Below, piece after piece: positions 12,401-44,726 of a DNA stretch of 59,088 nucleotides. How positions within the stretch are numbered: the stretch's first letter is position 1; the number at the start of each line of letters is the position of its first letter. The notes below the pieces were generated by a model. That model was not told the origin of the DNA. It worked only from the letters and a program-made list of their open reading frames with translations, and did not search any database. The stretch covers positions 1 through 59,088 of the IMG/VR virus record IMGVR_UViG_3300035388_000078, one strand, 5' to 3'. Origin of the DNA: a virus. Its lineage: Duplodnaviria > Caudoviricetes. Position numbers and translations under genes: made by a program.

Positions 12401-15400
12401 TCTGATACCAACAAGGGCTTTTATCTGGGACTCACGCTTTGATGTTTCTTTTGCGCTTTTTACAGAGTATTTGTGGGCATCATCTAATTTAGCAAGACGT
12501 TCACCCCGCACCACATACAAACCACCATCTTTTGTAGTGGTGATACTGTTTTGTCTTTCTTCGGTGTTATTGCTAATATACTGGATGTTATCGGTTTTAT
12601 TTCGTTTGGTCATTATATCGGCGGGGATTCTTTCGGATAGGGCATTTAAGACACCTTCATACCCATTTTTTCTTTCAACGATCATCCCTTCACGGCCCTG
12701 GGTGGTACCATGGCCAACGGTCATATTACCAAGGACATTTTCCGGTTTATGACCCCAATATTCATTTACTTTAATCACTCTCCCATCTGTTGCCTTTACT
12801 TCATTTCCCCGGGCATCTTTCATGGGAACCGATTCCATCCATGGAGCATGATGCTCTGCTTTGTTCTTCCCGTCATGTTTCTGGAAAACAAGAATATCAG
12901 CCACAACCGATGTGCCAGCATATTTTTTAAAGGCACCCATGGGCATACGATATGCCGCAACAAGAGTACCTCTTTTTTCCATCTGGCGCCGGGCAACTTT
13001 CCCTATTTTATCCATGGTCCCTGAACTGGTGATACCTATTACAAAACCACCATCCCGGACCTGATCCAAAGCTTTAACGAAAAAGTAATCATGGAGGGTT
13101 AGCCGATGTTTGTTATATCGCCTGTCTGCTGGTGATTCTGCTGCAAAAGGCCAGTTACCGATGACAAGATCATAAAAGCCGTCTGCAGTCTTGCTTTTTT
13201 CATATCCCATTTGCTGGACGTTGGTATCGGGATAAAGCATCTTGGCCATTTCCGCCGTGGTTTCGTCAAGCTCGATGCCGGTCAATTCACTGGTGACTTT
13301 CAAGTCTTTAGGCATTAATCCATAGAAATTACCTATACCCATGGAAGGTTCAAGCACCCTACCCCCCTTGAATCCCAATCTCTTTACGATATCCCACATG
13401 GCGGTTACAGTTGGTGGGTCTGTGTAGTGGGCATTGATGATAGAAGCCTGGGCAGATTTCCAGGCGGATTCTCCTAAGTGATCCCGGAGCCAATCATTTT
13501 CTTTCTGCCATCCTTCCTTGTATATAGGATTGCCCCAAAAACCCTTGAACATTTCTTGACCAAAAGAACCCCATCCAATATATGCAGCAATGGCGTCACG
13601 TTCCTCTGCTGTAGGGTTTCGCGCCTCATTCATAACCTTGTTAAAGGTTTCTATGGCTTTTTTATTTCTTTTGAATCTTACTTTAGGAGTGCCGCCTACT
13701 AATTTTTCAGGGTCATCAATGTGATAATTGCCTAACCCATCTCGTTCTCTTCTTCCGGATCCATTATCAACCAATCCTGTTCCGCCATCATCCGAGCGTC
13801 CGATCTCGGTATTCCCGCTTCCCTGTTCTTGTCCATTGCCTCCTGAGCCTTGCAAGCCAGAACGTAGGCCGTCTGTTCCAATATCCCCAGGTCCGTCAGG
13901 TTCTTGTACATCTTCGGGCGGCTGTCCTTCCAACAAGTCAACATCATTGTTATGTAAGGGTGTTTCATCCCCGGCCAGATCTCCGTTTCGTCCTCCTGGA
14001 ATCGTTTCGTCTGTTCCAGTACCCAGGTCTTGTACGTCTGATCCTCTTTCGATATCGGCATTGGCCTTTTCCTTTTCAATGGATTGAATTTCATCATATT
14101 CTTTAACAAGAGAATCGTCAATAACCATGTCATTTTCAACGAACTTTGCAAAGTATGGCCTACCCTTTGGGCTCAAGCCCTGGACAACCATTTTAGCGAA
14201 CTCGGCAGCATCTTTACCGGCCATCAATACTTCATTCAACATTTCTTGAAGCATGGGCTTGAGTTCGGCATAAAGATTTTCATCTGTTTTTTCAGTAGAA
14301 AAGCTGCCACGCTCACCCAATTTTTTATTCATTCTTTTTAAAAGGTCCGCAGCATTTGACATATGCTGCTTTGCATCCACAAGTTTTTGCTTGGATGTTA
14401 CTTTTTTGGCTTCTTTGTCAAATTCTGCAAGAAGGTTCGCCGGGTCAAATCCTTTGGGGATCTTGTCCGTTTTCGATTCGGCTCCCTGTTTAGGAGTTGA
14501 ACCATGGTCCGGTTTTTTCTCAACCAAGGGCCTTGTAAAGCCTTCCAATTCTTCCGCCGTCAAGAATTCATCTTCCCCGGCATCATACAATGCCTTTGGA
14601 GTTTTATATCTTTGCGGGGATGTGCTGGAATGGCCGCTTGAATGGTCTATCTTTCTAACCCAAGGAACGTCCTTGTCGATATAAAGCACCTTCCCGTCAC
14701 TATTTTTGCCTACATTTTTAAACCGGGTTTCTACTTCGGATTCCTTAGACTCCCCACTTTCCACAATTTTAGGAGTTTTTTCGTCAGATTTGACGGAATC
14801 AGCGGATAAGGCCCCAGGGGAAGAAGCAGTCAGATCCTTTCCACTGACAATTGTTTTCTTGCCCCCATCGACCTGGACCCGATATCCCAAGGACTTATGT
14901 TTCCCCAAGATTTTACCGGTCATGGGCTTTCCCTTTTTGGTTTTCCAGGAGACGCCCTGGCCATCTTCAAAGGTAGTAATGTCATTTTTCCCGAAATCCG
15001 TTGAATCCCCCGTTTTTTCGGTCCTTTTGTCCGTGTCCGGATAAGAATTTTTATCACTTGTTTCTGTTATATTTTGGGAACCATTTTGGGAATTATTGGA
15101 GCCAGAAAATGAATTTCCTGTTTTAGAATTATCCGGGCTTACAGCCAACGGTTTCTTAGTCCGCTTTCCATCCTTCAACCAGGCCTTAAAATCATCCTGA
15201 CCCATTTCAGTAATCGCACCAAACCCGCCCCAGCCCTTTTCATAGTTCGACATATAAAGGTCTTTTGCTTCCTGCTCGAACTCCGTGCCCATCACAACCT
15301 TATGCTCATCAAAGCGGCCCGTTTCCGGGTCCACCTGGTCTACAACAAATATCTTGGGGCTTGTCTCGGTACCAGCTTTTACAACAACATCCACCTGGTC

Positions 15401-17545
15401 TCCATCTTTGCCCATGGTCCTATTGAAGTACCCATAATGCCCGGTCATGGTGGATTCCCATTCTTTCCCCAACTTGTCCTTTCCTTTCCGGGTAGATCCG
15501 TCTGGGTTCTCAATGGAGATATTCAAGCCGTCAATTTTGATATGGGATTTTTTATAATTGCCGGCCTCTTTCTGAGCGTCTGAAGGATCAGTATTGACCT
15601 TATCTGGTTCAACCTCATGCTCAGGAACTGGCGAATCCTGTAAGACAGTTTCAGATTTAGAGTCAAAGACCGGTTTCATCCTGCCGTCAATATTTGCACC
15701 GGGAACATCTTGATTGCCACCGGGGGTATTTGTCATCCCGTTTTGAAATTTTCTTTGATCATGAACAGATTCGGATTCAAACTTAGCATCTGATACGTTT
15801 ATCCCATCATCATAATACACAGGATTGTTCGGCACCGATTGTGGTTGAGGCTTGAGCTTACCCTTATCAAGGTCAGCGAAAGGCAGATATTTTCCACCAT
15901 CATTATAATCCTGCATTCCACGTTGAGACTTTGGCATATCGGCGGGCATTGTTGGAATTTTACTTTCATCCGGACGGGTTTCCAAAGCGTTTTGGAAAGG
16001 TATAGACTGATCAATCCCCCTTCTTGAATCCTGGTGTTTTTGTAACGCCTGCGCTGCCTTTTCTCTCTTGAAAGTCTCTATCCCGGCCTGTTGCTCTACT
16101 TCTCCCTGGTTGTGTGTGGCAGGGGGGGCATAAAACTTTTTGGCCTTCGCTTTTACATACTGGCTTTCTGAATCGTTATCCGGATAAAGTTCTTCCACGG
16201 CTTCAAGGGAACCCACCTTTTTAATCAGGTTGTCTATAAAAGTCTCCCGTTTTACGTCCCGGGCAGGCACCGGCCCTTTCCCGTCTTCATAATCAAAGGG
16301 ATTTACATCTGCATACCGAGGATTGCCCCGTGTGTCTGTTTGGGGTAAAGTCTCCTGATCTTTTATCCCATGCTTAAATTGTTCTTTTCCTTGTTGGGTA
16401 AGGATTTCTTGTTCTTGTTTTTTCCAATATTGATTTTCAGTTTCGGCCTGGTCCCTCTTTCCCTCCGCTTCGGTCTTTTTCTTTTCTAAATCATGAATCC
16501 TTTGTTTCTGATCAGGACTTGGTTTCTTAAATTGCTTAAGGTTCTTAATTTTAGTATCCAAGGCATTAACGGTTGCACCCATGGCTGCACCAGTAAGCAA
16601 GCCCATAGCCGCCGCCTCATCAACCCCTTCGCTCAAAGGCCGGTTAAGGGCAGCATTCTGCCAAACCTGCTCCTGAACAGATTGGGGCAATTCTTCAAGA
16701 AGGCCCTCAGAAACCCCACCTTCAATAATCCGTCTGATTACGCCTTTCTCACTGATCTCGGACCCAATTTCTACCATCATGGTATCCGCATCGGCAAAAC
16801 CAAATTTTTTGGCTAATCGACCACCAACCATACCAAAGGCCCCGGTCCCGACACCTGATCCAGCAGCATAAAGAGACTGTTTTGCAGAAAGAAGTTTATT
16901 GTCTGTTTGTTGTCTGATTTGTTCAGCAGCAGATCCGGCAGCAGCGACACCTTCACCAACGGCACCAGCAACCCATGGAGCAAGCTTAAATCCTTTACCT
17001 GCAATCTTCCCGACCGCTCCCCCGGCGACCATCAAAGGTAAAGATTCAACAACGGCTTCAATAACAGTAGATGGATTTGTTATTATTTTACCGGTTTTCC
17101 CCCAAAATCCATTGGCATCCGATACACGTTTTTTTGCTGCTTTTTGTGCAGGGGACATCATGGCGTCTGCATTTTCCCCGGCCTTTTTAAAATCAAAGCC
17201 AAGGGTCTCATCAACAAATTTTCCGACATGCCCCGCTGTGGGAATATCCAATAATCCTACAGCCGATTCAGGAACCGCCATAAAACCCTTAGCAACCGCT
17301 ATACCCAAATCTTTGGCTGTCCCTGAGAAAGTCCGGCCAGGCGTTTCTTCTTGAATACCATGTGCCCGATCATACAAACCATCCAAATCATCCCCATTTT
17401 TTTTGGCCGGCATCCGATCATAAAGATCATCCAAAGGATCTTTATTCTTCTTGACAGGAAGATTTGGTGTCTTTTTTAAGGATCGTTGAAAGTCATCCTC
17501 TAAAATTTTTTGAAGGTGATTTTTTTCTATAGCATCGTTTTCCAT
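3449..17545 (-). CDS. Giant DarB-like polyvalent virion/ejection protein (InPase-like, N6-adenine MTase, SNF2 helicase, PRTase, zincin peptidase)
   Basis: GNYKKSH..HYGYF..DGDQVD..FDEHKV (~15170-15600); EPSMGIGNF (~13340) and IGNWPF (~13150); HEVGTGKT (~11260), DEAH (10721-10732), QRNGRGHRQG (~9560); IIVDDVVAQGGT (~7990); HELIH (~7260). Confidence 0.9.
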   Translation of the reverse strand: MENDAIEKNHLQKILEDDFQRSLKKTPNLPVKKNKDPLDDLYDRMPAKKNGDDLDGLYDRAHGIQEETPGRTFSGTAKDLGIAVAKGFMAVPESAVGLLDIPTAGHVGKFVDETLGFDFKKAGENADAMMSPAQKAAKKRVSDANGFWGKTGKIITNPSTVIEAVVESLPLMVAGGAVGKIAGKGFKLAPWVAGAVGEGVAAAGSAAEQIRQQTDNKLLSAKQSLYAAGSGVGTGAFGMVGGRLAKKFGFADADTMMVEIGSEISEKGVIRRIIEGGVSEGLLEELPQSVQEQVWQNAALNRPLSEGVDEAAAMGLLTGAAMGATVNALDTKIKNLKQFKKPSPDQKQRIHDLEKKKTEAEGKRDQAETENQYWKKQEQEILTQQGKEQFKHGIKDQETLPQTDTRGNPRYADVNPFDYEDGKGPVPARDVKRETFIDNLIKKVGSLEAVEELYPDNDSESQYVKAKAKKFYAPPATHNQGEVEQQAGIETFKREKAAQALQKHQDSRRGIDQSIPFQNALETRPDESKIPTMPADMPKSQRGMQDYNDGGKYLPFADLDKGKLKPQPQSVPNNPVYYDDGINVSDAKFESESVHDQRKFQNGMTNTPGGNQDVPGANIDGRMKPVFDSKSETVLQDSPVPEHEVEPDKVNTDPSDAQKEAGNYKKSHIKIDGLNISIENPDGSTRKGKDKLGKEWESTMTGHYGYFNRTMGKDGDQVDVVVKAGTETSPKIFVVDQVDPETGRFDEHKVVMGTEFEQEAKDLYMSNYEKGWGGFGAITEMGQDDFKAWLKDGKRTKKPLAVSPDNSKTGNSFSGSNNSQNGSQNITETSDKNSYPDTDKRTEKTGDSTDFGKNDITTFEDGQGVSWKTKKGKPMTGKILGKHKSLGYRVQVDGGKKTIVSGKDLTASSPGALSADSVKSDEKTPKIVESGESKESEVETRFKNVGKNSDGKVLYIDKDVPWVRKIDHSSGHSSTSPQRYKTPKALYDAGEDEFLTAEELEGFTRPLVEKKPDHGSTPKQGAESKTDKIPKGFDPANLLAEFDKEAKKVTSKQKLVDAKQHMSNAADLLKRMNKKLGERGSFSTEKTDENLYAELKPMLQEMLNEVLMAGKDAAEFAKMVVQGLSPKGRPYFAKFVENDMVIDDSLVKEYDEIQSIEKEKANADIERGSDVQDLGTGTDETIPGGRNGDLAGDETPLHNNDVDLLEGQPPEDVQEPDGPGDIGTDGLRSGLQGSGGNGQEQGSGNTEIGRSDDGGTGLVDNGSGRRERDGLGNYHIDDPEKLVGGTPKVRFKRNKKAIETFNKVMNEARNPTAEERDAIAAYIGWGSFGQEMFKGFWGNPIYKEGWQKENDWLRDHLGESAWKSAQASIINAHYTDPPTVTAMWDIVKRLGFKGGRVLEPSMGIGNFYGLMPKDLKVTSELTGIELDETTAEMAKMLYPDTNVQQMGYEKSKTADGFYDLVIGNWPFAAESPADRRYNKHRLTLHDYFFVKALDQVRDGGFVIGITSSGTMDKIGKVARRQMEKRGTLVAAYRMPMGAFKKYAGTSVVADILVFQKHDGKNKAEHHAPWMESVPMKDARGNEVKATDGRVIKVNEYWGHKPENVLGNMTVGHGTTQGREGMIVERKNGYEGVLNALSERIPADIMTKRNKTDNIQYISNNTEERQNSITTTKDGGLYVVRGERLAKLDDAHKYSVKSAKETSKRESQIKALVGIRNKYGQLLDAERGGKSSAENLRKELNRQYQNFVLNHGSINESFALKIFDKANDPLFPAMAALENNTGNKKKPIYKPSLIFKESTQRAKKSIKNPSVSDAFVLARNDSARTVDVDAIAKMANTTPDAVKKELFEKDALFETPAGTFEVKDIYLSGNIREKLSDAEDAQERNGLDMKRNIESLKKVMPADIPYFSIETNLGATWIPANVYQQFIGETANLPPEITKTIKLKPSINGWIVKFDNASSIDSRDETRTLWSTPGAPFTRIVRAAFTGQSITIKARDEHGNDYTDIAASAKANEKVEAFREALQDWIWKDVDRRVSLEKHYNEIMNAWATPEYDGSFLSFDGMMLKMGEEEFNLRKHQVDAIWRGVANGRGLYAHEVGTGKTYTMGGIAIESRRYGLAKKPLILGHNANSASVASDIQEMYPGAKILYIDNLTPKTIDQKLYQIANDDWDAIVLPHSLLSRLTLSRETLDRLAAEEIEALEAEAIASAEEDGFDIAGILDDEDALRKVRGASTAKELVKQRNKIIANIERQAMAASKENAVLFEQLGIDMIIIDEAHEFKKPPISTRMKVKGLNTQTSDKAIALNFLTGYVKELNSGKGVHIFTGTPITNTLNEIYNHMRYTMSDEMEKADVLSWDAWFNTFASVESDVERTTKGDYESVSRLSGFHNVSELRRFAGQYMDIVFADDMPEFVPRETKSGKSLHDKDITEKEKDELLNGRVDTGKVVGRPYKKLLNEVAEMSPEQRNILAEIVERSNSFANASGKERREIMLSGDNRNPVIIETDAAKAGFDPRLYDKDLSDHPDNKINRCVTNVIGHYAEHELASQVIFMEKGYSDTAKRSAGKNDAGEKMTRTVDVFNAAKDLKDKLIAKGILAEEIALVTGKVSKKKRKEIADKVNSGEIRVVVGLTATLGTGVNMQENLRAMHHLDAPWMPGELEQRNGRGHRQGNRWNTVYEYRYITDNIDARRWQVLAKKQKMITDFLKAKDGLRSIQGDAVELGNSDLDDINASFSEAAGDARILIREKLKKDIKKLEKKQRTHDFGIVEAKDKIKDIGKRVLPEYKEKIAAFKSDMDHFASVVNDPYSITINGKKFTKRDKAGVKLEQVSIAAAMKDNKGQFVQGDWDEKKIGEYRGFDIMAERNSFWGVSYYLKRETDHKVKPSIGSIDHNMRSMGKLYESGLVQIEEKERALERFKEVAKEPFGQEATLKVKKEMLSQVEADLSANPDAPPSWLAQGAPIGTEIYYEGEKYEVEGHRKGDVGYYLMIKKGEAREVVSYLDVMDENNLQVYEPLEGDEPVKKSGAIGRGAAGFTQQKFDNADLPGSNKVKFSISSVKPWAENFPNIYGHTSTAALKRHPDYEKAKAGDAKSAARLVSDLIKVDRVKKLGEQFPDAEVVAVHAEEKSGKNAIPGMIADAIGHITGLRVDITIMQSYRAEHTQKGSADRMLSRAEFDGQVKKGLQYIIVDDVVAQGGTISELRHYIENNGGKVVAVSSLSYARGSGTVAIQTSTIGELKKRFSQNEFEKLLQEYNVSGTIESLTEREGKYLLKFKTLDSIRNKFFEEKQEGSPRVLYSLLQRESPDLGSDQSGQVDKPSETLKTKEQHGRNLAARRVASESDKSGSGKTARKKFQSLLGFRDKDGTTKLTYPIDKKSEQLRKIAKAFGKTLHFFISKNPEINRINGLTNPATGTEIFVNINSTDPLISIVGHELIHQLKANHPDLYEFLTYQIEVSDQNFNKYVATLTGSREGSFTSVSDQDVLYEEFIGDFAADQFQRIEFWQRFLNHNRTFTERIIDILQGILDKLKTLFPRAEHLVSNLQESQETLAFVMSEAVRMEKAGNEDVYSWDAKGQTSKQAPMFSTSENMDIPASEKKEAYGQIFSGMKKVFTNRKNKGPNFKEDIGVIENVFGLMSHYSEKIPALAKTFDELLKRPEWKFQKENELAKDGETAMVGILTDLQKENLPAYNELEGYLHNRDIDQIGNLVVSHTETGDVPIEGYENPNQKRTWKVLSEKNEKTGKRKILQSGFKSKTEARKWSIEHEVDNYINIEGREALKAFRTMTANLHDYYAESWEAIIKEYEERGLAVPEVVTETKAGESRINLKVALAQMGERSSYYFPRQRSNGDWKITATKKGEPTIIDYRDYKATADYFAGTLEKQGYTVDTPEKVGSMSEDVYASIRDILGVQAAVNQALAETKMEKKERDLKSEFRLDGKWQGKDYVVQNGGQYEWSSAVLGELGGEEYSHRGITDESWAPGFRFTNAPKDMHEIVSNALFASRGLETDVSFQIAQSLAKQLADQLHSRGSQARMISRSEAVGIDVPQGYKTDPAKAIAQAINSAAGGFAKKQVALNTSKAITGQHFTWAEFQKQHPDYDSLKDIEEEKQGLSENSKADDTRIAKIDQQIKEMQIEAAGVKNESEASKQDRLYRIGALYRERGIIQKWKDPAHVKTLNKQIVRLRGGMHKEYRAFIEDNMIDSKRQKRAHGDAVNAVENVLRNKEASDRVIDTFRGLASVWFLGGRLSSAAINLTSLGTTVPACMSSYGDIPMRQVARLLGVSCKAYSSFATGKGKISDKDRVVLEEINSRGWLAAQLNMETVNALKSGPAKKYSRMVELLMTPFKVTEEFNRGTTLLAAYKGIRQTDTSISHENALLKAKKVSDRAHGIYGIENQPALLRKGRGLNAARSMYIFQTFIHNYFTTLAYMVGNKEAKAATYMLLSPIIFGGAGASVLLVATKMIFKAMGEDDPEEKIYQIAEQLFGETGGDVARYGLPGLTGISLKGSLAPNLPDFDGPMDILGPIGGMGQNIYQGGVNLTRGNYLKGLEKITPSFIGSGIKGVRESTQGITTKSGDPVFFGNKQLKGDLKTGITRGLGFNPIKISKPREVQWNETTLKRQYTERKRKLYNRIIKHFAQPGKDRNASEWQNIIFDIKKFNARVYGNAIDRFVPPITERTIKNRIKRAFRPRKSERLRNTKRKREGVL
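13732..14061 (-). CDS. Nested out-of-frame ORF (109 aa, TnpV-like pattern) inside the giant gene
   Basis: Internal promoter and AAGGAAAAGG RBS precede the ATG; product WKDSRPKMYKNLTDLGILEQTA...AEQDWL looks helical and protein-like; the main frame here is a G/D/R-rich linker. Confidence 0.6.
   Translation of the reverse strand: MPISKEDQTYKTWVLEQTKRFQEDETEIWPGMKHPYITMMLTCWKDSRPKMYKNLTDLGILEQTAYVLACKAQEAMDKNREAGIPRSDARMMAEQDWLIMDPEEENEMG
14093..14121 (-). promoter_or_regulatory. Intragenic sigma70-type promoter for the nested ORF
   Basis: TTGACG (14121-14116), 17 bp, TATGAT (14098-14093), 31 nt upstream of the ATG at 14061. Confidence 0.6.
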
Positions 17546-43154: not shown

Positions 43155-44726
43155 TTATAGTATCAGTTCTCTACACAGGGCCTCAGCAACCCTACCCGGG
43201 ACCGCATTACCTATCTGCTTAACAATCTCACCCTTGTTGCCGGCAAACTGATAATCCATAGGGAATGATTGTGCTGCAGCAAGTTCATGGGGCTGTAGCA
43301 TCCGCAACCGGATATCAAGCCATATGCTTTTTTTAAATATTTCAATCAGGCCATACCGGTCTCTTGTGGTGACGGTCCCTATGGGCTTATCTACGGACTG
43401 AGCTTTGCTCTGACCAAAATATTTAATCAGGTGAGCATGGACCAAGGCATGGCTTTGCTGAGTTATGACTGTGGGAGCTGGCTTGTCCAGGGAACGAACA
43501 TAACTTTCCCCGGCTGATTTGTGATCGATGCCGACCAGAAATGAAGGCTCAACCAACATTTCGGCCCCGGTGGTTGTCAGCGTGGACAAGGGCTTCTCAA
43601 TAGATTTTACTCGTAGCTGGCCCGCCCCACCTTGTTGCTGAGGCAGGATGAAGGGTTGGACAAGGGCCTTGCCAGGGCGGGTCGTCAAAGTGGGAAAGGG
43701 TCTTTCCAATGACCGGACCCTTTGGGGCCCTGTGTGAGTATAATTTTGATCAATCAAAAATGGCTGGCAGAGATACATATTCTGTTTTGTGGTCAAGGTA
43801 GGCATAGGGAAATTAATGTCCCGTGACATGCTCTTTCCCTTCATGATCGTAAGGAATGGACTACATAAACCTATGTGTTGCCCATTGGCCGTGATAGTGG
43901 GGACCGGGTTATTCAGGGACACCCCTTTACTGGTACCAAAAAATTTCACAAGGAAATCCTCACCACCAAATTTTTTTAAACCATATTCAATCCGGGCCAG
44001 GGTCTTGACTGCCAATGGTTTTTTTCGGGTAAAAATAGATTGCCCCTCGAGGGACCAGTCAATAATATTTTTAGCTGGCACCCATGGCTTAATTACTTTC
44101 CCTCCATAACCATTATATCCTTTTTCGGCATGAGTGGCACTCGGCCAGCTGATCCGCTTATTTCCTCGCTTGGCAATGAGAAAAAACCGCTTACGACAAG
44201 TGGGGTCACCATAATCCGCAGCATTTAGCACCCGGAACTCCACCCTGTACCCAAGAGACTCAAGAGCAAAAATAAAAGCTTTAAAAGTTTGCCCTTTTTT
44301 GGATTTCATGGGCTTGCCGTTTGCCCCAAGAGGCCCCCATGATTGAAATTCTGGAACATTTTCAATCAAGATTCTATCAATATATAGAGCCTCAGCCCAA
44401 CGCACCACCTCCCATGCACCGGCCCTGGATTGATCAGAACAAGGGGTACCCCCGCGGGCATTGCTATAATGGGTACACTCAGGGCTTGCCACAAGTAATT
44501 TGATCCTGCCTCCCGGAAAAACTTTCCGGGGATTTAAATTATTAATACCTTCACAAAGGTGCCGGACCTGGGGATGGTTTTTGGTATGGGTTTCAATTGC
44601 TTTGTCCCAATGGTTTATGGCTGTGAGTTCTACTTTTTTTCCCAAGGATTTAGCAGCCCGAATCAAGCCGGTACTTGTTCCGCCTGCACCACAATAAAAA
44701 TCTGCAACTTGAATTATTTCTGTCAT
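43155..44726 (-). CDS. DNA (cytosine-5)-methyltransferase
   Basis: DFYCGAGG, SPEC, ENV, R.RFF, KQIGNAV motifs; repetitive variable region. Confidence 0.92.
   Translation of the reverse strand: MTEIIQVADFYCGAGGTSTGLIRAAKSLGKKVELTAINHWDKAIETHTKNHPQVRHLCEGINNLNPRKVFPGGRIKLLVASPECTHYSNARGGTPCSDQSRAGAWEVVRWAEALYIDRILIENVPEFQSWGPLGANGKPMKSKKGQTFKAFIFALESLGYRVEFRVLNAADYGDPTCRKRFFLIAKRGNKRISWPSATHAEKGYNGYGGKVIKPWVPAKNIIDWSLEGQSIFTRKKPLAVKTLARIEYGLKKFGGEDFLVKFFGTSKGVSLNNPVPTITANGQHIGLCSPFLTIMKGKSMSRDINFPMPTLTTKQNMYLCQPFLIDQNYTHTGPQRVRSLERPFPTLTTRPGKALVQPFILPQQQGGAGQLRVKSIEKPLSTLTTTGAEMLVEPSFLVGIDHKSAGESYVRSLDKPAPTVITQQSHALVHAHLIKYFGQSKAQSVDKPIGTVTTRDRYGLIEIFKKSIWLDIRLRMLQPHELAAAQSFPMDYQFAGNKGEIVKQIGNAVPGRVAEALCRELIL

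What the first reader, a model, noticed from the sequence alone, without database searches (positions are those of the whole stretch)
13732..14121. Complete overprinted gene with its own promoter inside the giant gene, ending where the methylase begins
Seen: main-frame residues IDDSLVKEYD encode TTGACG-17 bp-TATGAT, followed by AAGGAAAAGG and ATG at 14061. This opens a 109-aa same-strand shifted-frame ORF (MPISKEDQ...WKDSRPKMYKNLTDLGILEQTAYVLA...DARMMAEQDWLIMDPEEE). The main frame over this stretch is a low-complexity G/D/R linker, as expected if the other frame carries the constraint. The stop falls at the start of the MTase-helicase unit (NYHIDD...). Recollection: the W/LKxxRPxxYxxLxxxGxL pattern resembles TnpV-family proteins, which I recall near methylase-helicase genes in conjugative elements. 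Inference: a hidden partner (inhibitor, chaperone or regulator) of the DarB-like module that can be expressed independently of late transcription. Annotation pipelines would miss it.
Basis: partly seen in the sequence, partly recalled or inferred. Interest (0 to 1): 0.87.

Follow-up and report, generated by a model that had tools for sequence, protein, structure and literature searches.

The report
Hidden conserved gene inside giant gene
A small, well-folded protein is encoded in a shifted reading frame inside the flexible linker of a giant phage anti-defence gene, and both readings are preserved in dozens of distantly related phages, so this is a real gene within a gene that annotation usually misses.

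Summary
The ORF exists as described: minus strand, ATG 14061, stop 13732-13734, 109 aa, +1 frame of the 4698-aa giant gene. Its length alone is not significant (gene-wide P=0.21). Comparative evidence settles it. In 50 of 50 loci examined, including cultured Pseudomonas phage vB_PaeM_USP_18, a homologous ORF lies in the +1 frame of a giant ORF and ends where the LPD36-methylase module begins. The shifted and giant frames have 0 stops; the third frame has 279.

In the overlap, the giant frame's third codon positions become its most conserved. With the small protein fixed, the giant frame should carry about 8 stops (P<=0.0008 in 5 of 10 lineages). A profile of the product finds 208 small proteins. 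It folds as a five-helix bundle at pLDDT 93.7.

A start codon is found in 50 of 50 loci. A Shine-Dalgarno motif is enriched before it (27 of 48 against 14% background).

Codon usage suggests the small gene is the older reading. The promoter-like site recurs in only 2 of 10 lineages, and TnpV membership is not supported. Function is unknown.

The parts
13732..14061 (-). Embedded small gene: ATG 14061..14059, 109 codons, stop TAG 13734..13732. It lies in the +1 frame relative to the giant gene. The product is a five-helix protein of an unnamed family.
   Evidence: sequence, translation. (a homologous +1 ORF in 50 of 50 loci). (208 profile hits). (pLDDT 93.7, pTM 0.85).
14065..14074 (-). Shine-Dalgarno-like AAGGAAAAGG; its AGGA lies 8 nt before the ATG.
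   Evidence: By a blind rule, an SD 4-mer lies 4-10 nt before the start in 27 of 48 loci, against a background of 0.136.
14093..14121 (-). Sigma-70-like TTGACG-17-TATGAT (10 of 12). The -10 element ends 32 nt before the ATG. It is not conserved across lineages.
   Evidence: a comparable site in 2 of 10 lineages, with 0.011 expected per 150-nt window.
13733..14062 (-). Main-frame linker of the giant protein (residues 1162-1271), rich in G, D and E and of low complexity. This is the stretch read in two frames.
   Evidence: with the small protein fixed, the main frame is expected to hold 8.2 stops, and none of 4000 redraws had zero; across 50 loci the linker is G 21.6%, A 14%, D 9.7%, with hydrophobic fraction 0.22.
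3449..17545 (-). Giant polyvalent (DarB-like) gene of 4698 aa. Domains: InPase 656-791, helical domain about 1058-1149, linker, LPD36 plus adenine methylase from 1273, SNF2-type helicase 2070-2666, PRTase 3141-3224, HExxH motif at 3426.
   Evidence: The domain scheme follows passages of PMC5512222 read.
12410..13729 (-). LPD36 plus methylase module (NYHIDDPEKLVGGTPKVRF...IGWGSFGQ...), which begins directly after the small gene's stop.
   Evidence: 56-74% identity to the window across 9 lineages. (the start motif lies -16 to +128 nt from the small gene's stop in 48 of 50 loci; a variant is visible in the other 2).
14099..14374 (-). Upstream helical domain in the giant frame (...PYFAKF...). In some metagenomic 222-aa proteins this domain is fused in frame to the small-protein domain.

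Best explanation
This is a genuine, widely conserved gene embedded out of frame (+1, same strand) in the disordered linker of a giant phage polyvalent-protein gene. The linker lies between an upstream domain and the LPD36-methylase-helicase (DarB-like) module. The same nucleotides encode two products: (a) a low-complexity spacer of the giant protein, rich in G, A, D, R and P, and (b) a compact five-helix protein of about 110 aa.

Shown: both frames are kept open, the small frame is under amino-acid-level purifying selection, and a start codon with a ribosome-binding motif sits just before the conserved core.

Inferred: the small protein is made as a separate polypeptide by internal translation initiation on the giant gene's (late) mRNA. 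An internal promoter may add to this in some lineages, including this one.

Inferred from codon usage, the fold and in-frame relatives: the small gene is the older reading. The giant gene came to read across it in another frame, joining the flanking modules while keeping the small protein free.

Inferred from its fixed position only: it works together with the methylase-helicase module or the polyvalent protein, for example as an assembly or packaging helper or an activity regulator. I put that role at about 35-40%.
For: Conservation of the arrangement:
- 42 of 42 further viral loci have the ORF in the +1 frame of a same-strand ORF of 1525 to more than 4100 aa. None has it in the +2 frame or in frame. 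Two of the 42 are re-fetches of contigs already seen.
- Searches show the same for the window's closer relatives and for Pseudomonas phage vB_PaeM_USP_18.
- (50 loci, G+C 0.43-0.69): 0 stops in the small frame, 0 in the giant frame and 279 in the third frame.
- the 50 products form 29 groups at 60% identity.

Selection on the small frame:
- in the giant-frame register the flanks vary most at codon position 3 (0.53-0.76). Across residues 1170-1259, position 3 varies least (0.22-0.34) and position 1 most (0.42-0.48). This is the pattern expected if the +1 frame is the constrained protein.
- product identity is 0.388 for the small frame and 0.283 for the giant frame over the same nucleotides.

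Selection on the giant frame:
- with the small protein fixed and codons redrawn, 1.3-8.2 stops are expected in the giant frame.
- P(0 stops) was 0, 0, 0, 0.0008, 0.018, 0.12, 0.27, 0, 0.02 and 0.03 in the 10 lineages.

A real protein:
- 208 hits at E<=1e-3 and 79 at E<=1e-10. The 150 listed are 71-275 aa.
- pLDDT 93.7, pTM 0.85, five helices.

Its own start:
- an ATG lies between the upstream stop and the core in 48 of 50 loci. The closest ATG carries an SD 4-mer 4-10 nt upstream in 27 of 48, against a background of 0.136.
- the 2 exceptions have ATG with GGAG, and GTG with GGAGG.
- In several loci the small frame is closed 1-6 codons before the start.

Age of the two readings:
- synonymous-codon log-odds are +0.158 for the small frame and -0.356 for the giant frame in the overlap. 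The small frame scores higher in 42 of 50 loci.

Position:
- the LPD36 start motif lies -16 to +128 nt from the small gene's stop in 48 of 50 loci, and a variant is visible in the other 2.
Against: - ORF length in this window alone is unremarkable (P=0.21 gene-wide).
- There is no expression evidence of any kind for any member.
- No Pfam, PHROG, PDB-sequence or confident fold match gives a function.
- The promoter-like site is seen in only 2 of 10 lineages.
- In-frame proteins of 222 aa join the upstream helical domain to the small domain: P0168, and the P0131 cluster of 19 members on many contigs. That is what would be expected if a +1 ribosomal frameshift joined the two here.
- The AlphaFold model of P0168 does not pack the two domains (pTM 0.49), so it gives no support for a helical-domain partnership.
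- The best viral fold match is a piece of a large phage protein (Q8W6J4_2: E=0.011, TM 0.59), so an in-frame version may exist somewhere.
- In the blind count, SD motifs are missing in 21 of 48 loci. Some loci are near-duplicates (46 groups at 95% identity).
- The partner role rests on position alone.
Confidence: 0.8

Rival explanations
1. Programmed +1 ribosomal frameshift. Some ribosomes translating the giant gene slip into the +1 frame after the upstream domain. They make a truncated protein (about 1160 N-terminal residues plus the small domain) that ends at 13732, while the rest make the full-length protein. On this reading the small domain is not a free protein.
For: In-frame relatives exist. 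P0168 (222 aa) joins the helical domain to a small domain closely similar to the window's. The P0131 cluster has 19 members, mostly 222 aa, on contigs up to 67,862 bp. P0041 (185 aa) is a third case. SD-like sequences can also stimulate +1 shifts (recalled from the prfB case).
Against: - A start codon sits just before the conserved core in 50 of 50 loci, which a frameshift would not need.
- In several loci the +1 frame is closed 1-6 codons before that start, leaving almost no room for a shift site.
- I saw no shared slippery motif in the upstream sequences printed.
- L011 and L012 have no helical domain within 110 residues upstream.
- No in-frame form of 278-2000 aa was found (weak evidence).
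Confidence: 0.1
2. The small protein is a distant TnpV-family member. It would then carry whatever role TnpV has beside methylase-helicase genes in conjugative elements.
For: The TnpV model has 111 positions, about the same size as this family. A language-model search puts a cluster in which 13% of members carry PF14198 at score 0.83 with 180 shared features.
Against: - PF14198 matches neither the window's product at E<=1, nor any of the 5 members of A2 at E<=10.
- It matches none of 10 family representatives and none of the 67 members of A3 at E<=1.
- It matches nothing in six-frame scans of the window and 5 related viral records at E<=10.
- None of the 13 hits carries a precomputed Pfam domain.
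- A tblastn search of 72,556 plasmid records with P0169 found nothing.
Confidence: 0.1
3. Chance open frame: a hydrophilic linker has few codons with T in the second position, so the +1 frame stays open without encoding anything.
For:: T at the second codon position is 0.18 in this region against 0.24 gene-wide. The gene-wide chance of a +1 run this long is 0.21. Locally, P=0.088.
Against: The product is conserved with HMM E-values of 1e-25 to 1e-40 across 50 loci. It has 208 database relatives. The codon-position pattern is reversed in the overlap. The model reaches pLDDT 93.7. Start codons and SD motifs are conserved.
Confidence: 0.01
4. The giant ORF is not translated across this stretch. 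The true genes would be an upstream gene, the small gene and a methylase-helicase gene, and the giant frame would be open here by accident.
For: The main-frame linker is poorly conserved (identity 0.283) and has atypical codon usage. Modular relatives with a separate 222-aa gene appear to exist.
Against: The giant frame has 0 stops in 50 of 50 loci, while the third frame has 279. With the small protein fixed, P(0 stops) is <=0.0008 in 5 of 10 lineages and <=0.03 in 8 of 10. I did not check whether the methylase module has a start codon and ribosome-binding site of its own.
Confidence: 0.03

Closest known systems
Embedded out-of-frame phage genes such as lambda Rz1 inside Rz, or phiX174 E inside D (recalled, not tested here)
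   Same: A small gene lies wholly inside a larger same-strand gene in a shifted frame, has its own start codon and ribosome-binding site, and is missed by gene callers that forbid nested genes.
   Different: - The sequence and fold are unrelated to those examples.
- Here the host stretch is a disordered inter-domain linker of a protein of roughly 3500-4900 aa.
- The embedded gene appears to be the older reading.
- The arrangement is kept across at least 29 groups at 60% identity and G+C of 0.43-0.69.
Polyvalent proteins with the LPD36-adenine methylase-SWI2/SNF2 module, archetype phage P1 DarB (Iyer et al. 2017, PMC5512222; passages read)
   Same: The host gene has the InPase, LPD36 (GxGU motif, here IGWGSFGQ), methylase, SNF2-type helicase, PRTase and HExxH elements described for phage-type polyvalent proteins.
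   Different: The main text of that paper has no occurrence of 'overlapping', 'frameshift', 'TnpV', 'linker' or 'disordered'. I could not see its supplements. A gene in a second frame upstream of LPD36 is not described there.
TnpV (Pfam PF14198), a small protein of Tn4451-type elements
   Same: Similar size (the model has 111 positions). Both are helical. There is a recalled similarity of a W/L-K-x-x-R-P...L...G-x-L motif and a weak language-model lead (score 0.83).
   Different: The family HMM does not match any of the proteins or records tested.
Programmed-frameshift gene pairs in phages, such as lambda G/GT (recalled)
   Same: A second frame continues a protein, and relatives exist in which the two parts are fused in frame.
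   Different: Here the second frame has its own conserved start and ribosome-binding motif, and the frame is closed just upstream of that start in several lineages. I saw no shared slippery site.

Membership tests
Embedded (nested, out-of-frame) overlapping protein-coding gene | Both reading frames are kept open across divergent relatives, beyond what composition allows | tested here: met
   0, 0 and 279 stops in the small, giant and third frames over 50 loci. P(giant frame open, given the small protein) is <=0.0008 in 5 of 10 lineages and <=0.03 in 8 of 10. Taken alone, the window's ORF is not significant.
Embedded (nested, out-of-frame) overlapping protein-coding gene | Amino-acid-level purifying selection on the embedded frame | tested here: met
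   in the overlap the giant frame's third codon position is its least variable (0.22-0.34, against 0.53-0.76 in the flanks); identity 0.388 against 0.283; 208 profile hits.
Embedded (nested, out-of-frame) overlapping protein-coding gene | Its own translation start (start codon plus ribosome-binding site) | tested here: met
   an ATG in 48 of 50 loci, and an SD 4-mer in 27 of 48 against a background of 0.136; the 2 exceptions have ATG with GGAG, and GTG with GGAGG.
Embedded (nested, out-of-frame) overlapping protein-coding gene | The product is detected (RNA, ribosome footprints or peptides) | not testable with these tools
TnpV (PF14198) | Match to the family HMM at or above the curated cut-off of 27 bits | tested here: not met
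   No match at E<=1 for the window's product, for 10 family representatives or for 67 family members. No match at E<=10 for the 5 members of A2. No six-frame match at E<=10 in the window or in 5 related records.
TnpV (PF14198) | Profile-profile or fold-level relationship to TnpV | not tested
   No TnpV sequences could be obtained: the control genomes held none over the cut-off. The only hint is the language-model lead at 0.83.
Phage-type polyvalent protein with the DarB-like module (the host gene) | LPD36 (GxGU motif) + adenine methylase + SWI2/SNF2 helicase in one polypeptide, with further effector domains | tested here: met
   ResIII 3.1e-5, SNF2-rel 3.7e-4, Helicase_C 8e-11, InPase 2e-50, PRTase 2e-4, and a weak Eco57I methylase match (0.026). 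IGWGSFGQ after NYHIDDPEKLVGGTPKVRF. The definition is taken from PMC5512222. The methylase assignment rests on a weak Pfam hit plus conservation.
Programmed +1 ribosomal frameshift | A conserved shift site with the shifted frame open upstream of it | tested here: not met
   The +1 frame closes 1-6 codons before the conserved start in several loci. I saw no shared slippery motif on inspecting the upstream sequences; this was by eye, not a formal motif search.
Programmed +1 ribosomal frameshift | Relatives in which the two frames are fused in frame | tested here: met
   P0168 (222 aa), the P0131 cluster (19 members) and P0041. Their genomic context could not be fetched.

The most novel reading that the evidence does not exclude
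A free-standing small gene that once lay before a DarB-like methylase-helicase gene was 'bridged'. The giant polyvalent gene arose by reading across that small gene in another frame, turning its DNA into a disordered linker. Selection has kept the small protein as a separate polypeptide with its own start for a long time. It is an obligatory trans-acting subunit of the injected anti-restriction module, acting as a chaperone, packaging adaptor or activity brake. Nesting guarantees that the two are inherited together and made on the same mRNA. If so, this would be a general route by which giant multi-domain phage proteins are built, and a missing component of DarB-type counter-defence.
Probability: 0.3. 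Interest if true: 0.88.

Novelty: new variant of a known kind. Interest (0 to 1): 0.82.

Why it matters
- It adds an unrecognised protein family of about 110 aa, with no Pfam, PHROG or PDB match, to the giant polyvalent (DarB-like) proteins that phages package and inject to counter host defences. The family is conserved at one fixed place in at least 50 phage genomes, one of them a cultured Pseudomonas phage in which the gene is not annotated.
- It is an unusually clean case of long-lived dual coding, in which both frames are demonstrably under selection.
- The older reading seems to be the small gene and the newer reading a disordered linker. That suggests how separate modules can be welded into giant genes without losing an intervening gene.
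- Gene callers that forbid nested genes will miss it or mis-call it. Functional studies of DarB-like modules that express the 'giant' ORF, or delete parts of the linker, will unknowingly add or remove this protein.
- I found no description of it in print. Searches gave nothing relevant, and I read passages of PMC5512222. Supplements were not visible.

Tried and rejected
- Length statistics alone do not make the ORF significant.
- Pfam and PHROGs on the product and its family gave no family.
- A profile search of PDB sequences gave nothing better than E=0.38. Foldseek against PDB gave nothing better than E=1.6. In BFVD only Q8W6J4_2 scored (E=0.011), and I could not fetch it.
- The TnpV HMM in six frames matched nothing, and none of the control genomes held TnpV over the cut-off, so no profile-profile test was possible.
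- Complex prediction of the LPD36-methylase domain (A7) with the small protein (A3) returned no verdict (score 0.00). This says nothing about binding.
- AlphaFold of the 222-aa fused relative P0168 gave pTM 0.49 with the domains not packed. Its N-terminal alignment was shallow.
- The look-up of sequencing runs listed no RNA holder, only three DNA runs that may be the source of the window.
- Metagenome scan with the main-frame protein: no relative.
- Viral scans with P0041 and P0131: none. The scan with P0168 found only giant ORFs that share the helical domain and lack the small ORF (L014, L015).
- tblastn of the plasmid collection with P0169: no match.
- Scan of 401 genomes of the phylum of L002's genome: 1 of 401, which was L002's own genome.
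- Search for longer in-frame forms: none (weak evidence).
- Antisense ORF 13728..14087(+): no antisense frame is consistently open (0 stops in 26, 14 and 20 of 50 loci), so I rejected it as a gene.
- Earlier findings of this scan: nothing.
Full report
**What is in the window**

The window is a 59,088-bp provirus record, rated 94% complete. It carries an integrase, primase, a DNA methyltransferase, terminase, portal and major head protein genes. Apart from the integrase, these genes are on the minus strand. The giant gene 3449..17545(-) lies downstream of the head and packaging genes on the minus strand.

The giant gene encodes 4698 aa. Pfam finds InPase (residues 656-791, E=2e-50), ResIII, SNF2 and Helicase_C (2070-2666), a PRTase domain (3141-3224) and a weak Eco57I-type methylase match. 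There is also an HExxH motif at residue 3426.

This fits the phage-type 'polyvalent proteins' of Iyer et al. 2017 (PMC5512222), whose archetype for the LPD36-methylase-SWI2/SNF2 module is phage P1 DarB. I read passages of that paper. The LPD36 GxGU motif is visible here as IGWGSFGQ, shortly after NYHIDDPEKLVGGTPKVRF.

**The observation**

- A +1-frame ORF is open at 13732..14151.
- An ATG at 14061 gives the quoted 109-aa product, with stop TAG at 13734..13732.
- AAGGAAAAGG lies at 14074..14065.
- TTGACG-17-TATGAT lies at 14121..14093. It scores 10 of 12 and is the best of 13 sites in the gene, but shuffles give 21.6 +/- 4.7 sites.
- The main frame over the stretch is a linker rich in G, D and E.
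- The stop abuts the first residues of the methylase module.

**Chance**

Taken alone, the ORF is not remarkable.
- With the giant protein fixed and codons redrawn from the gene's own usage, the longest +1 run averages 126 +/- 26 codons. P(>=146)=0.21 and P(>=109)=0.71 (300 redraws).
- The local chance of no +1 stop is 0.088 for 110 codons and 0.015 for 146 codons.
- A codon-order shuffle gives P=0.0006. That null changes the protein, so I give it less weight.
- The linker has fewer codons with T in the second position (0.18 against 0.24), which lowers +1 stops.
- Antisense frames of the gene hold runs of 139-160 codons.

**Relatives decide it**

Two relatives at about 60% identity in the giant protein were examined first: L001 (an IMG/VR contig) and L002 (a Desulfobacterium MAG contig). 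Both have the same +1 frame open over the same linker. Each has an ATG, and each stop falls at LGNYHIDD. The +1 product is visibly better conserved than the linker. L004 and L005 show the same.

In the giant-frame register, variability among the window, L001, L002 and L004 is highest at codon position 3 in the flanks (0.53-0.76). Across residues 1170-1259, position 3 becomes the least variable (0.22-0.34) and position 1 the most (0.42-0.48). Giant position 3 is the second position of the +1 codons. This is therefore the signature of amino-acid selection on the +1 frame.

The converse also holds. With the small protein fixed and its codons redrawn, the giant frame should contain 1.3-8.2 stops. 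The chance of none was 0, 0, 0, 0.0008, 0.018, 0.12, 0.27, 0, 0.02 and 0.03 in ten lineages (a first version of this test was). Both frames are therefore maintained.

**Breadth**

A profile of five +1 products (A2) was searched against 1.84 billion representative proteins. It found 208 at E<=1e-3 and 79 at E<=1e-10. The 150 listed are 71-275 aa.

Scans of IMG/VR with sub-family alignments brought in 5 loci and then 36 and 8 more. In one search, 42 of 42 loci had the ORF in the +1 frame of a same-strand ORF of 1525 to more than 4100 aa. None had it in the +2 frame or in frame. Two of these, L045 and L056, are re-fetches of the contigs of L009 and L011.

The cultured Pseudomonas phages vB_PaeM_USP_18 and USP_25 have the same arrangement inside a CDS annotated 'hypothetical protein' that spans 14,844 bases. 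The small ORF is not annotated there.

For pooled counts I used 50 loci: the window, L001, L002, L004, L007-L012, L016-L055 without L045, and L058. I dropped the following:
- L003 and L013, which are the window and L002 again;
- L005, which is 98% identical to L004;
- L006, L045, L056 and L057, which are contigs already in the set;
- L014 and L015, which have the helical domain only.

Over the conserved core of these 50 loci, the small frame has 0 stops, the giant frame 0 and the third frame 279. Mean pairwise identity is 0.388 for the small product and 0.283 for the giant-frame product of the same nucleotides. The linker is G 21.6%, A 14%, D 9.7%, R 8.9% and P 8.1%, with hydrophobic fraction 0.22 against 0.40 for the small product.

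The 50 products form 42 groups at 80% identity and 29 at 60%. G+C ranges from 0.43 to 0.69 in the loci for which it was printed. No antisense frame is consistently open. The start motif of LPD36 lies -16 to +128 nt from the small gene's stop in 48 of 50 loci, and a variant is visible in the other two.

**The product**

With a 67-sequence alignment (A3), AlphaFold gives a five-helix protein with mean pLDDT 93.7 and pTM 0.85. No function could be assigned:
- no Pfam or PHROG family;
- no PDB sequence match below E=0.38;
- no PDB fold match below E=1.6;
- one viral fold lead, a piece of a large phage protein (Q8W6J4_2, E=0.011, TM 0.59).

The median pI of the core is 5.4, and many members end in an acidic EPE-rich tail.

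**How it is expressed**

I applied a blind rule: take the ATG closest upstream of the HMM-defined core, within the open frame. By this rule, 48 of 50 loci have such an ATG. In 27 of those 48, a Shine-Dalgarno 4-mer lies 4-10 nt upstream, against a background of 0.136 in the same regions. The two exceptions have ATG preceded by GGAG and GTG preceded by GGAGG.

The rule sometimes picked a second ATG where an upstream one carries the motif (L016), so 27 is a lower bound. An earlier count of 7 of 10 used starts that I had partly chosen by eye. In several loci the small frame is closed 1-6 codons before the start.

I therefore favour internal initiation on the giant mRNA.

The promoter-like site is a weaker point. 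A site scoring >=10 of 12 within 150 nt upstream occurs in 2 of 10 lineages, namely the window and L004/L005 (TTGACA-17-GAAAAT). The expectation is 0.011 per window. That is more than chance but far from general, and high-G+C lineages have none.

**The rival: frameshifting**

Some database proteins join the upstream helical domain to the small domain in one frame:
- P0168 (222 aa), whose small domain is closely similar to the window's;
- the P0131 cluster, with 19 members, mostly 222 aa, on contigs up to 67,862 bp;
- P0041 (185 aa).

This is the classic hint of a programmed shift. Against it stand the conserved start codons, the closed frame just upstream, the absence of any shared slippery motif that I could see, and lineages without a helical domain directly upstream (L011 and L012). 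I could not fetch the contigs of these fused proteins, so I do not know what follows them. A model of P0168 does not pack the two domains (pTM 0.49).

**Which reading is older**

Synonymous-codon usage was scored against the giant gene outside the overlap. It is typical for the small frame (+0.158) and atypical for the giant frame inside the overlap (-0.356). The small frame scores higher in 42 of 50 loci.

Taken together with the confident fold, the in-frame and short database forms, and the low-complexity nature of the linker, this suggests that the small gene is ancestral and the linker is the newer reading. It is an inference, not a demonstration.

**TnpV**

- There is no PF14198 match at E<=1 for the window's product, for 10 representatives or for the 67 members of A3. 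There is none at E<=10 for the 5 members of A2.
- There is none at E<=10 in six-frame scans of the window and five related records.
- A language-model search gives only a weak lead: score 0.83 to a cluster in which 13% of members carry TnpV.
- I could not run a profile-profile test because no TnpV sequences were at hand.

**Function**

Function is not shown. The one constant is position. The gene always ends at the start of LPD36-methylase-helicase, is always in the +1 frame, and was never found in frame with a giant protein. The longest of the 150 listed hits is 275 aa, and nothing was found at 278-2000 aa (weak evidence).

My best guess, at about 35-40%, is that it is a separate subunit working with that module or with the assembly, packaging or processing of the polyvalent protein. 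Other possibilities are an independent early or anti-defence factor, or a role tied to the upstream helical domain.

**Novelty**

Nested out-of-frame genes are known in phages (recalled examples: Rz1 in Rz, and phiX174). This family, its host context and its breadth appear undescribed.
- Searches found nothing relevant.
- The main text of PMC5512222 has no occurrence of 'overlapping', 'frameshift', 'TnpV', 'linker' or 'disordered'. Its supplements were not visible.
- Some pipelines do call members as 'hypothetical protein', for example WP_011736958.1 of Pelobacter propionicus.

Noticed in passing
window 13728..14087 (+): A 119-aa ORF lies antisense to the dual-coded stretch. Across 50 loci no antisense frame is consistently open (0 stops in 26, 14 and 20 of 50), so it looks like a by-product of the constraints on the other strand.
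   Followed up: yes
database proteins P0168, P0131 cluster (P0154-P0167), P0041, P0004: Proteins of 185-222 aa join the upstream helical domain and the small-protein domain in one frame. The P0131 cluster has 19 members, on contigs up to 67,862 bp. Their gene neighbourhood could not be fetched. They may represent the unfused, ancestral layout.
   Followed up: partly
L014 and L015 (IMG/VR contigs), match at 8001-8285: Giant ORFs, open for 4922 aa within the locus, carry the same helical domain (40% identity to P0168) but are followed by different sequence and have no embedded small ORF. The helical domain therefore also occurs without it.
   Followed up: partly
L012 = MT491207.1 23782-41988 (Pseudomonas phage vB_PaeM_USP_18), small ORF about 8908-9261 of the locus: A cultured phage has the same nested gene inside a CDS annotated 'hypothetical protein' that spans 14,844 bases. 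The nested gene is not annotated. It is a ready experimental system.
   Followed up: partly
L004 3896-3924 and L005 3896-3924: A second lineage has a sigma-70-like site scoring 10 of 12 (TTGACA-17-GAAAAT or GAGAAT), 44 nt before the embedded start, at a position equivalent to the window's. It is absent in the 8 other lineages checked.
   Followed up: yes
BFVD entry Q8W6J4_2 (fold search): This is the only fold match with high probability (prob 1.00, E=0.011, TM 0.59 over 98 columns, 21% identity). It is a piece of a large phage protein, so the domain might exist in frame in some phage. The entry could not be fetched or identified.
   Followed up: no
database protein P0140 (275 aa): A family member carries about 170 residues of extra C-terminal sequence of unknown nature after the small domain. 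It is a single sequence on a 1108-bp contig.
   Followed up: no
window 7253..7270 (-), giant protein residue 3426: An HExxH motif (HELIHQ) lies in the giant protein. It is consistent with the zincin-like peptidase that Iyer et al. propose cuts polyvalent proteins into units. If so, the dual-coded linker may be a processing spacer.
   Followed up: no
window 43155..44726 (-): A separate 523-aa DNA methyltransferase gene (phrog_116, E=1e-76) lies in the replication block, so the phage has a second methylase besides the one in the giant protein.
   Followed up: no
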